Shown in pieces: positions 25,321 through 45,834 of a DNA stretch of 64,000 bases (position 1 is the first letter of the stretch; each line of letters opens with the position of its first letter). Position numbers and translations under genes: made by a program. The stretch comes from the human T2T-CHM13v2.0 reference genome, Homo sapiens. The stretch is taken from assembly GCF_009914755.1 (NCBI RefSeq), contig NC_060929.1, one strand, 5' to 3'. The notes beneath the pieces were generated by a model. The model was not told where the DNA came from and did no database searches. It worked only from the letters and a program-made list of their open reading frames with translations.

Positions 25321-25394
25321 AAATTTTATTGGGACTATTTTGATTCTACACCACTATTCTTTATTGGGTGTAACCCAGCAGGTCCACAAATAAT

Positions 25395-25804
25395 TATTAT
25401 TATTATTATTACCTTTTTTTTTGAGATGGAGTGTCACTCTTGTCACCTGGGCTAGAGTGCAGATGCGCAAAAGAGTGAGACTCTGTCTCAAAATAAATAA
25501 ATAAAATAAAAACAGGAAAATACATTTGTTGACCTCCTGGGTTGTGCCCAATAAAGAATAGTGGAGTTTAATAGCGGTTCACTGCAACCTCCACCTCCCA
25601 GCTTAAAGCGATTCTTCTCCCTCAGTCTCCCAAGTAGCTGGGATTACGGCACCCACCACAATACTCAGCTAATTTTTGTATTTTTAGTAGAGACAGGTTT
25701 CACCATGTTGGCCAGGCTGGTCTCAAACTCCTGACCTCAGGTGATCCGCCCACATTGTCCTCCCAAAGTGCTAGATTACAGGCATGAACCACCACGTCCG
25801 GCCT
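25395..25804 (-). mobile_element. AluS interrupted by an inverted duplication
   Basis: Alu breaks after ctagagtgcag (~25462) and resumes at ~25570 (ggttcactgcaacc). Confidence 0.85.
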
Positions 25805-25940
25805 AACAAATGATTTTTCATAGGTCACTGGACATCAAGGAGCCACTTGTGAACCAGGTGGAATGCAGGTGGGATGCATAGCACATGGCCCACAGGACCT
25901 GCACTGTGGGTTGGATACAGTAACGGAAGGGGCCTTTGGT

Positions 25941-26258
25941 CTTTCTTTTTTTTTTTTTTTTTTTTTTTTTTTTTTTGAGAGAGAGTCTTGCTCTGTTCCC
26001 CAGGCTGGAGTGCAGTGGCGTGATCTCGGCTCACTGCAAACTGCGCCTCCCGGGTTCACGCCATTTTCCTGCCTCAGCCTCCAGAGTAGCTGCTGGGACT
26101 ACAGGCGCCCACCACCACGCCTGGCTAATTTTTTGTATTTTTAGTTGAGACGGGGTTTCACCGTGTTAGCCAGGATGGTTTCGATCCCCTGACCTCGTGA
26201 TCCACCCGCCTCGGCCTCCCAAAGTGCTGGGATTACAGGCGTGAGCCACCGCGCCTGG
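25941..26258 (-). mobile_element. AluY with long poly-T and TSD
   Basis: Flanked by ctttggtctttctt on both sides; AluY diagnostic ccgtgttagccaggatgg. Confidence 0.93.
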
Positions 26259-28774
26259 CAAGGGACTTTGGTCTTTCTTGCTTGGGGCTGGGATGAGTGT
26301 GTCCTGTGTGAGAAGAAGGAGGCACAAGGCAGATTGGGTGGCCACAGCTGTAACCTGGAGCCACAGAGCGGGCTTCTGTTACACACTATTCTTCTTTTCT
26401 TCACTTTAACAGAACCATCCCTTGAGGTTTAGCTGGGGGCACCTGGCTGCCCAGCTACAGACTAGATTTTCCAGACTAATTTATATCAATTTTCTTTATT
26501 CTTTTAAAAGTTGTTTATTTATTGCACTTACATACTAAGATACCATTCTCAAAGGACCACGAAAGCAGAAATGGTTAATATATGAAGCTGTCTATAGGCA
26601 TGATAGAATAAAAAGTTTAAAAATTATTTGGGTCGGGCTTAAATAACTTTAACAGGTTAAAAAAAGTGTTTGACAATATTCAACAAATAATTCTTCACCT
26701 AATTTCTTATTGAAGCAATCACCTTAATATTCATTGGCCTTGATAAATGTGAACACTGGTCATATTTATGTAAATAATGGTCATGTGGCTTTCTTGGCAT
26801 ATCTAAATTCATGTTAGATCTGGCTTAACCTGTGCTTATGTATGTATATGTTACAGTTATGTACATTAAATGTGTGTGTAAGAGTTGGAATTATTTGAAA
26901 GATAGCAAAATTTTAACTAGAAAAAATAAGTTAATATCTAATAATAGTTGACTTGTTGATTAAAATAAGTAGTTATTATGAAAGAGAAAAAAGGTGATTT
27001 CAAATTGATTCAGAAGAACTGGCCTAGCAACTAAGATTGTATGCTTTCCTTTTTTTTAAAAAAAAAAAAGAACGGATATAATGTTATGTGACAATTAAAT
27101 ACAGAAATTACAAAACTAGTTAAATTGATGTTGCCATTAAAGCAACATTAAATAGTTTTGGGGGAGAAGAAAGAAGCCGAGAAGATGGTATCTGTGCAGT
27201 TAAGATGGTCATGTCATTTGATACATGTAAACAGAAAGCAGCCTGAGGCCCACACCTGCACCATGCTGAAAGAGCTGACCAGCGTTATATGTTCAGTCCT
27301 AGATGAAATGCTGCATTTGTTTTTTAAACACTGGTATGCATTGTTTTAAAAATGTATAAAATAACAGTGAAAAGTTAAAGAATCGTAAGAATGTAGCTAA
27401 AGGTAAAAAAATTTTGCAAAGCCATAATTTTTATGATGAAACAATATATTTTTTATCTTTTACGTATAATGTTTTAATGCTTTTTTAGCCCAATGAAATG
27501 TGGAAGTGTTTTGTGATTTTTATCTTACTATAGTGATTGTTTTATAAACAAAGAAAAAATTAATTCAGGATTGCAGATATGGTAAACTATTAAAATAGTT
27601 TGGGTATTAAAATATGAAATAATTGGGTATTAATTCAAAATCCAAGAGTTGCCATTGAACAAACCTGTAGGCATAGGTAAGTGCTGAGGTGAAAGTGCCA
27701 ACCAAAGCCGTTAGATTGAACATTTATGCCTGGAGGGAATCAGTAGAGGAACTGGCTGTGGACCTTCACCTCTGCATCCCCTTTGCTTTCTGCTGTAGCT
27801 GGGTATCACAAAAACAACAACAAAAGCCACTTATTTCTTAAAGACAGAGAAAGCATAGTTCCTTCCATTTAGGCATTCCTAAATTGCCTCCCCGGTGGCC
27901 CCTGCGCTCTTGGAGGAGGTCAAGGCAGAGCAGACCCTCAGGTGGGGGAGCGATGCACTTGACCCTGAGGACATCAGGTACCAGGCCCACTAGCCCCCGC
28001 AGGCGCGGAGCTGCGGCTGCAGCCACCAGCCTAGACGTGGCGCGCCCGCAGCAAGTGGCTGGACACCGCAGACCAGGCCCGCGTCCCCAGCAGCGCGGAT
28101 CCCGGGGCCAGCCGCCCAGGCAGCAAAGTCAGGCGGTCGGCTTCGCCAGCAGCCGATGAGTCTCATCCTGTGGATTGCCCAGCGCCAGGGATCAGGATCC
28201 GGAGAGGTGTCCAGGAGGAGCAGACCCTCAGACCAGGTAGGCTGTGCACTCGGTGACCCTGACGCCATCCAAGGGAAGCTCCGCCATCCCGCGCCAGTGC
28301 CAGAGCTGCAACTGCAAACTGCGCGTCCTGGCACGAGCAGCGGTGGGGGCGGGTGGGGGAAGGAGCGAGTGACTCTCCAGGCGTCTTCCGCTACCTGACA
28401 CCAGCCAGGCAGCCCCCAGGGCCAGAGCGTCAGCGCCGAAGCCAGGCTCATCCGGGAAGCCACTCCGGTGGCCGCGGGGTGCCCATGCCAGCACCAGATC
28501 TCTCTTCGGAAGGAGGAGCGGGGCGGGCTACACGGCCAGGCGGGCCCTCCCCTTAAGGCGGGGTGGGCCGCGCGCCTGCGATTTTCCGTCCGTGGTCCTG
28601 GGGCAGCCCGGGCCAGCCAGGAGAACCCGCGAGCCCAGCGGCGCCTGCACCTGCGGCTTCCAGGAGCCGGGCGGCTTTGCGAGGCTCACTAGGTCTGAGA
28701 GGTCGGAGGCCGCCAGTGTCGCTGCTGAAGGGTGGACCAGGCGGGATCGCGGATTCTGGGCTAGATCGCAGACT

Positions 28775-44029: not shown

Positions 44030-44160
44030 GGTACCTACCCGGTCTCTGCCTCAGTTTCCTCCTCTGTGAGACAGTGATCCTAACAGGCCCTACCTCTGAC
44101 AGTGGTTTTGATGAAGTACGCGATGTGGGTGAAGCACCTGGAGCTGGCCCACTCACAAAG
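44030..44160. mobile_element. MIR fragment
   Basis: tctctgcctcagtttcctcctctgtgaga..cctacctc core. Confidence 0.6.
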
Positions 44161-45284
44161 AACGCGCCACGGACTCTCAAGGTTAATGTTGAAAAGGGGC
44201 TGGGGTGGGGCAAAAGTGGGCAGGCCATTTCAGCTCCAGGTGCCTGGGCTGACAGATTGGATTAAATTAGCATGTGCATTGCTGAGTGCACAGGGGACAG
44301 TTGCCCAGGCCAGAGGCATCAGGGTCAAAGCTGGTGATGCCTTGGCCTCATCACCCCAGGCTAGGGCCAGTGCATGATGTAGTCAGCCAGGGGAGGGCTC
44401 TGGAGCCCTGCAGCCGAGGGGGCCTGGTGACCCTCACAAGGTCATTCACAGGCCACTAGGATGGCCTGCCCTTTTCCGGCCAGGCCTCACTCTAGGAAAA
44501 AAAAAAAATTGATTGTAACCTCGTTGGCAGTTTCCTTTGCATAGAAGTGGGAATTCGCTGCTAGCGAGGCTGGTGATGAACTCCGCAAAAGCTGGGAAAT
44601 CTCGTTTGAGCAGGAGCGCCCATTATCTTGGCCAAGCTGCTGCAGCTGGGCTGAGCGGGTGTGGAAGTGTGGGTGGTAGTCGTGTAAGTTCTCCAGCCAA
44701 GCCCAAGTTCCTCTGCAGACCTGTGCATGACGGCATATCCAGATGATTCCAACCTCCTGCTGTGGATTCAGTCCCGCTCCATAAGACTTCTCTGCAGTCC
44801 CCAGACATCAACAAGGAGCAATAAGCTATCTTTTCTGTGTCTTACCTGAATTCTTGTCCCTGTGAAGCATTAGCAAATTGAAATGTTTGTTTTCTACCAG
44901 CATTTGGGGGTATTAGTTTTTTTTATTTAAAAATAATCACAGTAAAGACATCAGGAATAACACACTTGTAGGACATTCACGAGGTACAGAAGAATGCACA
45001 CCAAAATCTGGACTTGTCTTTTCCTCTTCTGTAGCCTGCCAGCTTCTGCCTCTGGAAGTAACAACTGTTAAGTTTCTGCACATCTTTCCAGATTTATTAA
45101 TTGAACAATCATACAGCACTGACACCGTGACAAAGCTTTGTCAAAGGACTTTGGCTACCAGTGTAAAAGACTCATTTATTTTCATTTACTGTGAACACTT
45201 AGGTGGCACCAGGAAGGAAAGCCTTATGTTCATTCCTTTTTATTCTTCCTAACATATTCTGTTTTTAAAAATGTCTTTTCTAGG

Positions 45285-45587
45285 GGCTGGGCACAGTGGC
45301 TCACGCCTGTAATACCAACACTTTTGGAGGCCGAGGCAGGTGGATCACTTGGTCAAGAGATCGACACCATCCTGGATAACACGGTGAAACCCTGTCTCTA
45401 CTAAAAATACAAAAAATTAGCTGGGCACAGTGGCGGGCGCCTGTAGTCCCAGCTACTCGGGAGGCTGAGGCAGGAGAATGGCGTGAACCTGGGAGGCAGA
45501 GGTTGCAGTGAGCCGAGATCGTGCCGCTGCACTCCAGCCTGGGTGACAGAGCGAGACTCCATCTCAAGAAAAAAAAAAAAAAAAAAG
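45285..45587 (+). mobile_element. AluSc/Y-like
   Basis: Full dimer with an A tail. Confidence 0.93.
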
Positions 45588-45834
45588 TATTTCCCAATTT
45601 GGCATTAAGAGATATAAATCTGTGGTCTAGTATTTTTTAATTGAGTTTTCTCACTCTCTCTCATATATGTGTATATATATATGTGCACACCTGCCCAATT
45701 TTCTATTCAGTTGTTGACAATTAAAATTCTCCATTTACACAGGTAATATGTGTTCCTTCCCAAATTCTGTTAACCACCCCTTCAATTAGATAATTCCTGA
45801 AAAAAATTGCAACATCTATGTTAATGCAGTTTTT

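What the first reader, a model, noticed from the sequence alone, without database searches (positions are those of the whole stretch)
25321..45834. Candidate invertible 20.5-kb promoter cassette bracketed by the homogenised L1 pair
Seen: the segment between the inverted L1s holds the CpG island, the VNTR and the + strand spliceable ANKRD20A-like exons, all oriented toward FAM153. Known: a crossover between inverted repeats inverts the spacer, and conversion tracts are a by-product of such pairing. The TSD pairs still match, so this haplotype is in the ancestral orientation or has flipped an even number of times. Inference: a flip would point the promoter away from FAM153, a possible polymorphic on/off switch.
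Basis: inference. Interest (0 to 1): 0.75.

Follow-up and report, generated by a model that had tools for sequence, protein, structure and literature searches.

The report
Converted inverted L1 pair, unflipped spacer
Two old LINE-1 copies point towards each other around the start of the FAM153B pseudogene and share patches of identical sequence, likely from one-way copying between them, but the 20-kb stretch between them lies in its ancestral orientation in all three copies in this genome and no flipped version turned up in the inversion catalogues searched, so the proposed on/off switch is unsupported.

Summary
The anatomy is real: two full-length L1s in opposite orientation (95.6% over 6,135 bp) with intact target-site duplications bracket a 20.5-kb spacer holding a CpG island, a 19-bp VNTR and decayed gene exons. 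They inserted independently: their 5' parts differ as much as unrelated L1s, and empty sites exist on chr18 and chr16. They were then patchily homogenised: 0 fixed differences over 2,483 bp against about 81 expected. The two 5q35 paralogues show locus-specific, one-way A-to-B tracts, which points to gene conversion without crossover. The spacer is in ancestral orientation in all three copies. No inversion with these breakpoints appears in three inversion tables I searched; only larger duplication-mediated 5q35 inversions do. Ape tables could not be read. The spacer is not 'all oriented toward FAM153': RefSeq LOC100996385 runs the other way across L1-A, and testis ESTs likely start outside the spacer. 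A flip would therefore likely swap promoters rather than switch FAM153B off. Verdict: a new instance of a known architecture (closest: HsInv0341). A rare undetected flip remains possible (about 12%) and would matter mainly because the spacer holds the annotated NAHR hotspot.

The parts
19169..19184 (+). Outer target-site duplication of L1-A
   Evidence: single copy at the chr18 empty site
19185..25320 (+). L1-A, full-length, broken ORFs (longest stop-free stretch 328 aa)
20963..23445 (+). Main homogenised zone in L1-A coordinates: no A/B difference fixed across the five 5q35 copies (22509-22635 is converted only in paralogue P1)
24513..25043 (+). Second homogenised zone (531 bp free of fixed differences; includes the 344-bp identical run and a window-specific A-to-B cluster at 24811-24840)
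25321..25336 (+). Inner TSD of L1-A (left edge of the spacer)
27951..29550 (.). CpG island; an annotated FAM153B 5' end falls at 28122
28774..29272 (.). 19-bp VNTR, 26.2 copies
29348..29550 (+). Decayed first-exon remnant of a multi-copy gene family (ANKRD20A-like by recall)
29356..29716 (-). LOC100996385 exon 1: transcript leaving the spacer away from FAM153, across L1-A
   Evidence: RefSeq table in the finding; splice sites
27665..27798 (-). LOC100996385 exon 2
   Evidence: RefSeq table
30717..31426 (+). FAM153B NR_169299.1 exon 1; its donor splices over L1-B to 57148
   Evidence: RefSeq table
33579..33592 (.). Empty site; paralogue P1 carries a third ~6-kb L1 (L1-C) here
38640..38670 (+). 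Exon-like piece with AG/GT, kept in both paralogues
40236..43225 (.). RefSeq NAHR region inside the spacer (34-bp degenerate repeat array); 1.95 Mb from its direct copy in P2; taken to be the Sotos 3.0-kb hotspot (recalled, plus a paper title)
   Evidence: RefSeq table
45821..45834 (-). Inner TSD of L1-B (right edge of the spacer)
45835..51991 (-). L1-B, full-length, broken ORFs (longest stop-free stretch 461 aa)
47725..50209 (-). Counterpart of the main homogenised zone in L1-B; where a crossover would most likely fall
   Evidence: coordinates; inference
51992..52007 (-). Outer TSD of L1-B
52636..52666 (+). ATG-to-GT piece outside the spacer; FAM153 coding start by recall, not part of NR_169299.1
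   Evidence: label recalled
54778..54796 (+). Inferred 5' end of testis ESTs (FAM153B and the same place in FAM153A), outside the spacer
   Evidence: my offset mapping from hg19, inferred

Best explanation
Two full-length L1 elements inserted at separate sites in opposite orientation 20.5 kb apart, share multi-kilobase patches of identity that likely arose by repeated one-way gene conversion without crossover, and bracket a spacer that lies in its ancestral orientation in all three copies in this genome. Shown: independent target sites, patchy homogenisation, locus-specific A-to-B tracts with the donor unchanged, ancestral junctions. Inferred: a break in one L1 is repaired from the nearby inverted copy by strand invasion and resolved as a non-crossover; an older round (shared by all five copies) preceded the 5q35 duplications and later rounds acted separately in each paralogue. 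The pair is a plausible NAHR substrate, so a flip could occur rarely, but none is documented. A flip would likely swap the two divergent transcripts of the island instead of silencing FAM153B.
For: Independent insertion: in 19200-20700 A vs B differ by 8.6-10.2%, unrelated L1 pairs by 8.1-10.9%; empty sites with one TSD and both flanks contiguous on chr16 (2 of 2 loci) and chr18. Homogenisation: in 20963-23445 A vs B differ by 0.7-1.9%, controls by 3.9-4.7%; 0 of 148 fixed A/B differences fall there, about 81 expected from control ratios; longest identical runs 470 and 492 bp vs at most 184 in 11 control pairs; 44 positions where all five 5q35 copies agree against all four outside L1s, plus shared small indels at 22172, 22426, 24349, 24418, 24850; run test 0 of 2000 shuffles for both cis pairs vs 463-960 of 2000 for three control pairs. 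For 20600-22500 the five best of 40 scored genome hits are the five 5q35 copies (98-100%); the next is 96%. Non-reciprocal and locus-specific: A-derived states entered B of P1 only at 7 sites (5 clustered in 22536-22623, with two 3-bp indels) and B of the window only at 9 sites (3 clustered in 24811-24840) while A kept its own; 6 derived sites are shared only by P1's own A and B. Reciprocal-swap classes hold 0 and 2 sites, one of the 2 a CpG. Orientation: P1 and P2 are colinear with the window and all 10 TSD junctions found are in the window's arrangement. Population: none of 7 chr5 rows of PMC10150506 Table S1 matches; in PMC12350169 Table 37 the only local call is the 1.81-Mb inversion, 1 heterozygote of 65. 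Precedent for conversion with few inversions: 146 conversions vs 3 inversions in Y palindrome P6 (PMC3723533, abstract).
Against: Reciprocal exchanges older than the duplications cannot be seen with these five copies. Two sites (21619, 21883) do fit a swap in P1, and 3 and 4 scattered sites fit B-to-A transfer. Only 4 outside L1s were used to polarise (3 of the 35 non-5q35 hits, plus L1-C), one of them incomplete past 24913. The population evidence is absence from published tables, in a ~99%-identical duplication where callers can miss events. The ONT study did not test this pair and excluded repeat-only pairs unless previously predicted. Ape tables were too large to read. L1 pairs of this kind do invert elsewhere: HsInv0341, and 22 L1-flanked inversions with median identity 97.2%.
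Confidence: 0.8

Rival explanations
1. The spacer is a real but rare or under-called polymorphic inversion, toggled by crossover in the homogenised L1 core, like HsInv0341.
For: Runs of 430-490 bp of perfect identity and continuing locus-specific pairing. HsInv0341 has 6,170/6,159-bp LINE repeats, a 16.5-kb spacer, MAF 0.07 in 54 ONT genomes, and is polymorphic in chimpanzee. This pair was not among the 612 ONT-tested regions under the hg38 prefixes searched.
Against: No matching call among the chr5 rows for 44 samples or in the table for 65 samples/130 assemblies that did call the 1.8-Mb inversion starting just upstream of the window. 3 of 3 copies are ancestral. Only 6 of 319 a-priori inverted repeat pairs proved polymorphic in the ONT study. 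Overall identity 95.6% is below the 97.2% median of inverting L1 pairs.
Confidence: 0.12
2. The homogenised zones are scars of past flip-and-flip-back events (even number of inversions), each with associated conversion.
For: TSDs and empty sites cannot exclude an even number of flips. The oldest zone predates the duplications and cannot be polarised. Two sites fit a swap in P1.
Against: Two crossovers at different points would swap a segment reciprocally. The clustered post-duplication tracts leave the donor unchanged, and swap classes hold 0 and 2 isolated sites.
Confidence: 0.06
3. A and B look alike because they are sister insertions from one source element, or one is a local duplicate of the other, with ORF conservation explaining the core.
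For: Both are full-length and hold the 5'UTR segment that L1-C lacks, so they are of similar age.
Against: Their 5' parts differ as much as unrelated L1s; the core is far more alike than in control pairs; frameshifting indels are shared; each has its own TSD and empty site.
Confidence: 0.02

Closest known systems
HsInv0341 (chr13; PMC3961182 passages; PMC13629690 table rows)
   Same: Two ~6.2-kb full-length L1s in inverted orientation around a spacer of similar size (16.5 kb vs 20.5 kb).
   Different: HsInv0341 is a validated, probably recurrent inversion (frequency 0.03-0.07) with no gene listed in the inverted part. Here no inverted allele is documented, and the pair lies in a triplicated segmental duplication around a promoter and an NAHR hotspot.
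L1-flanked balanced inversions (Porubsky et al. preprint 10.1101/2021.12.20.472354, section 10 read)
   Same: Inverted L1 pair above 90% identity, a recognised NAHR substrate.
   Different: Those 22 events are observed inversions, median identity 97.2% and median size 5.6 kb; this pair is 95.6% overall, larger, and not observed to invert.
Arm-to-arm gene conversion in Y palindrome P6 (PMC3723533, abstract only)
   Same: Kilobase conversion tracts between inverted repeats, with crossover rare or unseen.
   Different: P6 arms arose by duplication and are above 99.9% identical; here the arms are independent retrotransposon insertions that converged secondarily on an autosome.
Known 5q35 duplication-mediated inversions: HsInv0277 (218-258 kb, between P1 and P2) and the 1.8-Mb inversion
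   Same: Same locus family; their breakpoint repeats include copies of this spacer.
   Different: They are mediated by the tens-of-kb segmental duplications, not by the L1 pair, and move whole blocks instead of flipping the spacer inside one copy.

Membership tests
Polymorphic NAHR inversion between inverted L1s (HsInv0341 kind) | Two long inverted repeats above 90% identity flanking a spacer | tested here: met
   95.6% over 6,135 columns, spacer 20,514 bp
Polymorphic NAHR inversion between inverted L1s (HsInv0341 kind) | Several hundred bp of perfect identity as crossover substrate | tested here: met
   470, 429, 344 bp in the window; 492, 449 bp in P1
Polymorphic NAHR inversion between inverted L1s (HsInv0341 kind) | Both orientations observed among paralogous copies | tested here: not met
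   3 of 3 copies colinear, TSD junctions unswapped; ancestral by empty sites
Polymorphic NAHR inversion between inverted L1s (HsInv0341 kind) | Both orientations observed among human haplotypes | tested here: inconclusive
   No matching row in three published tables; haplotype sequences themselves were not available, and the region is a near-identical duplication
Polymorphic NAHR inversion between inverted L1s (HsInv0341 kind) | Orientation differs or is polymorphic in apes | not testable with these tools
   Ape inversion tables too large to read; no ape genomes held
Non-allelic gene conversion between repeat copies | Tracts of identity far above the background of independent copies | tested here: met
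   0.7-1.9% vs 3.9-4.7% in the core; 0 vs ~81 fixed differences; run test 0 of 2000
Non-allelic gene conversion between repeat copies | Shared private mutations between non-orthologous copies | tested here: met
   44 shared states plus shared indels absent from 4 outside L1s
Non-allelic gene conversion between repeat copies | Non-reciprocal transfer, flanks unexchanged | tested here: met
   A-to-B tracts in P1 and in the window with donor unchanged; TSDs intact; the oldest tract cannot be polarised
Invertible promoter switch (phase-variation-like) | A unidirectional promoter inside the invertible segment | tested here: not met
   Annotated transcripts leave the island in both directions (RefSeq table)
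Invertible promoter switch (phase-variation-like) | No other start for the target gene outside the segment | tested here: inconclusive
   Two testis ESTs map by my offset to ~54780, outside the spacer; ESTs may be 5'-incomplete
Invertible promoter switch (phase-variation-like) | Expression tracks orientation | not testable with these tools
   No inverted allele and no expression data

The most novel reading that the evidence does not exclude
The L1 pair still recombines in cis and occasionally resolves as a crossover, giving a rare or somatic flip that catalogues miss inside the 5q35 duplication. The flip would point the LOC100996385 side of the CpG island into the FAM153B body and would turn the 3-kb Sotos recombination hotspot from direct to inverted relative to its distal partner, so one small inversion would both rewire transcription and change deletion risk.
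Probability: 0.12. Interest if true: 0.6.

Novelty: new member of a known kind. Interest (0 to 1): 0.25.

Why it matters
As it stands this is a clean, dated example of gene conversion between independent L1 insertions, with three paralogous replicates (one lacking the partner L1) that separate old from recent, one-way tracts. It shows that homogenisation of an inverted pair is not evidence that the spacer flips. It would matter more if a flipped allele exists, because the spacer carries the annotated NAHR hotspot and a bidirectional promoter; the effect on FAM153B itself, a transcribed pseudogene in RefSeq, would probably be small. I found no paper describing this pair (searches; open-access library only).

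Tried and rejected
Sister insertion or local duplication of one L1: rejected. ORF conservation as the cause of the core identity: rejected by control pairs. Reciprocal swap signature of double inversion: looked for, 0 and 2 isolated sites. GC bias in shared derived core sites: none, 10 weak-to-strong vs 9 strong-to-weak. L1-B antisense promoter as a documented FAM153 start: not supported; the two FAM153 rows in PMC4908685 Table S1 are assigned to an L1MC2 and were not validated. Naming the exon remnants by tool: Pfam 0 families for 2 of 2 peptides, PDB 0 hits, so ANKRD20A and the FAM153 coding start remain recalled labels. Visser 2005 (PMC1196433) is not held; only its title was seen in reference lists. 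PMC2701327 gave only reference-list passages. Supplement searches with the wrong ID format returned nothing and were redone (then 36, 66). One search used prefixes chr5-1765, -1766, -1783, -1785 on a file cut when stored; a P1 event named from 178.297-178.299 Mb would have been missed. The hg38 prefixes rest on an offset I estimated partly from recall. No empty site for L1-A came from the Alu-rich flank searches; it came from the 165-bp unique flank. Supplements not seen that may bear on the claim: PMC12058530 tables, PMC12350169 file 1, and the bioRxiv preprint's supplements.
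Full report
Observation. A self-comparison of the window gives one long inverted match, 19194-25305 against 51981-45864, 95.6% over 6,135 columns. Both arms are full-length L1s with broken ORFs. L1-A (+) is flanked by a 16-nt duplication at 19169 and 25321, L1-B (-) by a 14-nt duplication at 45821 and 51994. The finding's coordinates span the inner TSDs. The spacer holds a CpG island (27951-29550), a 19-bp VNTR (28774-29272), exon-like pieces homologous at 79-88% to about a dozen loci elsewhere (the name ANKRD20A is recalled, and Pfam and PDB gave nothing) and the RefSeq NAHR region 40236-43225. 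The claim that everything points toward FAM153 is wrong: RefSeq LOC100996385 starts at 29716 on the minus strand and splices across L1-A (table in the finding; splice sites).

Paralogues. The genome holds two further copies. P1 (chr5:178.285-178.356 Mb, minus) is colinear with the whole window, has both L1s, and carries an extra L1 (L1-C) at window 33579-33592. P2 (178.555-178.592 Mb, plus) starts at window 25576, so it has the spacer and L1-B but no L1-A. In both, spacer and flanks are in the same relative orientation as in the window, and all 10 TSD junctions found are unswapped.

Ancestral orientation. Two chr16 loci hold both flanks of L1-B contiguous around one TSD (45128-45834 then 51992 onward, about 90%). 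A chr18 locus holds both flanks of L1-A contiguous around one TSD (19124-19184 then 25321 onward). So each L1 is a separate insertion, and today's junctions are the pre-insertion ones: the spacer has flipped zero or an even number of times.

Homogenisation. I mapped five 5q35 copies (Aw, A1, Bw, B1, B2) and four outside L1s (L1-C and 3 of the 35 non-5q35 hits) onto L1-A. In 19200-20700 A and B differ by 8.6-10.2%, like unrelated pairs (8.1-10.9%). In 20963-23445 they differ by 0.7-1.9% against 3.9-4.7%. Of 148 fixed A/B substitutions none falls in those 2,483 bp, where about 81 are expected from the control ratio. Longest identical runs are 470 and 492 bp for the two cis pairs, 235 for Aw-B2, and at most 184 in 11 control pairs. 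All five copies share 44 states and several small indels absent from all four outsiders. A run test gives 0 of 2000 shuffles for both cis pairs, 38 of 2000 for Aw-B2 and 463-960 of 2000 for three controls (the shuffle ignores rate variation along the element, which the controls cover). This is conversion, not common origin or ORF conservation.

Direction and timing. Because B2 shares most of the core, the oldest tract likely predates the duplications (inference). Later events are locus-specific. In P1 only, B carries A-derived states at 22536-22623 plus two 3-bp indels and has lost the B-derived states at 22509-22514, while A1 keeps its own; six more derived sites are shared only by A1 and B1. 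In the window only, B carries A-derived states at 9 sites, three clustered at 24811-24840. A flip and flip-back with different crossover points would swap a segment reciprocally; those site classes hold 0 and 2 isolated sites, one a CpG. Against this reading: those 2 sites, 3 and 4 scattered B-to-A sites, the small outgroup, and the fact that swaps older than the duplications are invisible here.

Population evidence. PMC10150506 Table S1 (all 22 'chr5' hits seen; 7 rows in S1; 44 samples) has no inversion at 176.60-176.62 Mb; the nearest is 178,309,733-178,564,194 in one heterozygote. PMC12350169 Table 37 (prefix search of a file cut when stored) gives only chr5-176560667-INV-1810042, 1 heterozygote of 65; if detection were complete, 0 of 130 haplotypes would bound the frequency near 2-3% (my arithmetic). 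PMC13629690 tested 612 regions with ultralong reads; under the hg38 prefixes searched, the local ones are HsInv0273 and HsInv0277 (MAF 0.02), both duplication-mediated, and this L1 pair is not listed; only 6 of 319 a-priori inverted pairs were polymorphic (passages). PMC11393467 (passages) reports the 258-kb distal inversion in 1 of 40 haplotypes. Ape tables (PMC12058530) could not be read. So the inversion is unobserved, not excluded.

What a flip would do (inference). The island is linked to FAM153: a published gene table starts FAM153B at 176,604,122 (window 28122) and FAM153A at the matching place in P1, and RefSeq exon 30717-31426 splices over L1-B. But the island also drives an opposite transcript, so a flip would likely bring the LOC100996385 exons toward the FAM153 body: a swap, not an off switch. 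Two testis ESTs in PMC4908685 Table S1 start 24,061 bp into FAM153B and 30,110 bp into FAM153A; subtracting the 6,053-bp L1-C puts both within 4 bp of each other, near window 54,780, outside the spacer (my mapping; ESTs unvalidated). The larger consequence would be for the NAHR region, which lies 1.95 Mb from its direct copy in P2 and is probably the Sotos 3.0-kb hotspot (recalled; the paper's title seen, its text not held): a flip would reverse its orientation relative to P2 and P1.

Comparison. It works like other inverted repeat pairs that exchange sequence: Y palindrome P6 shows 146 conversions and 3 inversions (PMC3723533, abstract). Its architecture is closest to HsInv0341, a validated recurrent inversion between two 6.2-kb L1s (PMC3961182 passages), and to the 22 L1-flanked inversions of the Porubsky preprint (section 10). 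It meets the substrate criteria of that class but not the defining one, two observed orientations, so I file it as a converted inverted L1 pair and not as an inversion. Eight literature searches found no description of this pair; subscription papers were not searched.

Verdict. Observation partly confirmed; interpretation partly supported. Best explanation: one-way gene conversion without documented flips (0.80). Rare undetected inversion 0.12, past even-number toggling 0.06, common origin 0.02. Novelty: new member of a known kind. Interest 0.25; 0.6 if a flipped allele is found.

Noticed in passing
window 33579-33592; L012/L013 (chr5:178315726-178321764): Paralogue P1 carries a third full-length L1 (L1-C) inside the spacer, oriented like L1-B, with its own TSD and lacking 126 bp of the 5'UTR that A and B hold (likely a younger subfamily; the link to a known 5'UTR deletion is recalled). 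It is 6.3-7.1% from all five A/B copies and shows no homogenised zone. PMC13629690 Table S4 lists a ~6.6-kb deletion in this repeat in 20 of 54 samples, so L1-C is likely presence/absence polymorphic.
   Followed up: partly
window 25576; L021:4681: Paralogue P2 begins inside an Alu-like piece at window 25576 and so has the spacer and L1-B but no L1-A; it serves as a natural no-partner control.
   Followed up: partly
window 25343-25572: Old fold-back: 78-nt arms, 74% complementary, 74 nt apart, right after L1-A's inner TSD and ending 4 bp from the P2 boundary; absent from the chr18 ancestral-type locus.
   Followed up: no
window 40236-43225: The annotated NAHR region is a degenerate 34-bp repeat array with an internal 810-bp direct duplication (40057-40863 vs 42176-42979, 82%), and is more alike between paralogues (0.54-0.77%) than the spacer overall (0.91-1.45%).
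   Followed up: partly
window 19185-25320 and 45835-51991: Both L1s diverge more between paralogues (1.06%, 1.6%) than the outer flanks (0.5-0.8%), as expected if cis conversion keeps importing differences or the flanks are homogenised between duplications.
   Followed up: no
window 38290-45834 and 51992-52874: The right third of the spacer and the FAM153-side flank come from a block also on chr16 (two copies, 90-93%); 19000-19184 and 25321-27060 match chr18:28.42 Mb (73-88%). The spacer is a mosaic of duplicons.
   Followed up: partly
window 1232-1432: 67-bp unit x3, 98% matches; P1 shows a 200-bp offset here, so copy number likely differs between paralogues.
   Followed up: no
window 10770-16150: Long degenerate 18-bp repeat array whose strand asymmetry switches near 12-14 kb.
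   Followed up: no
L1-A coordinates 21443, 21855, 21619, 22297: A few derived states cross loci (shared by P1's A with both distal B copies, or by the window's A with P1's B), suggesting conversion between the duplications on top of cis conversion.
   Followed up: partly
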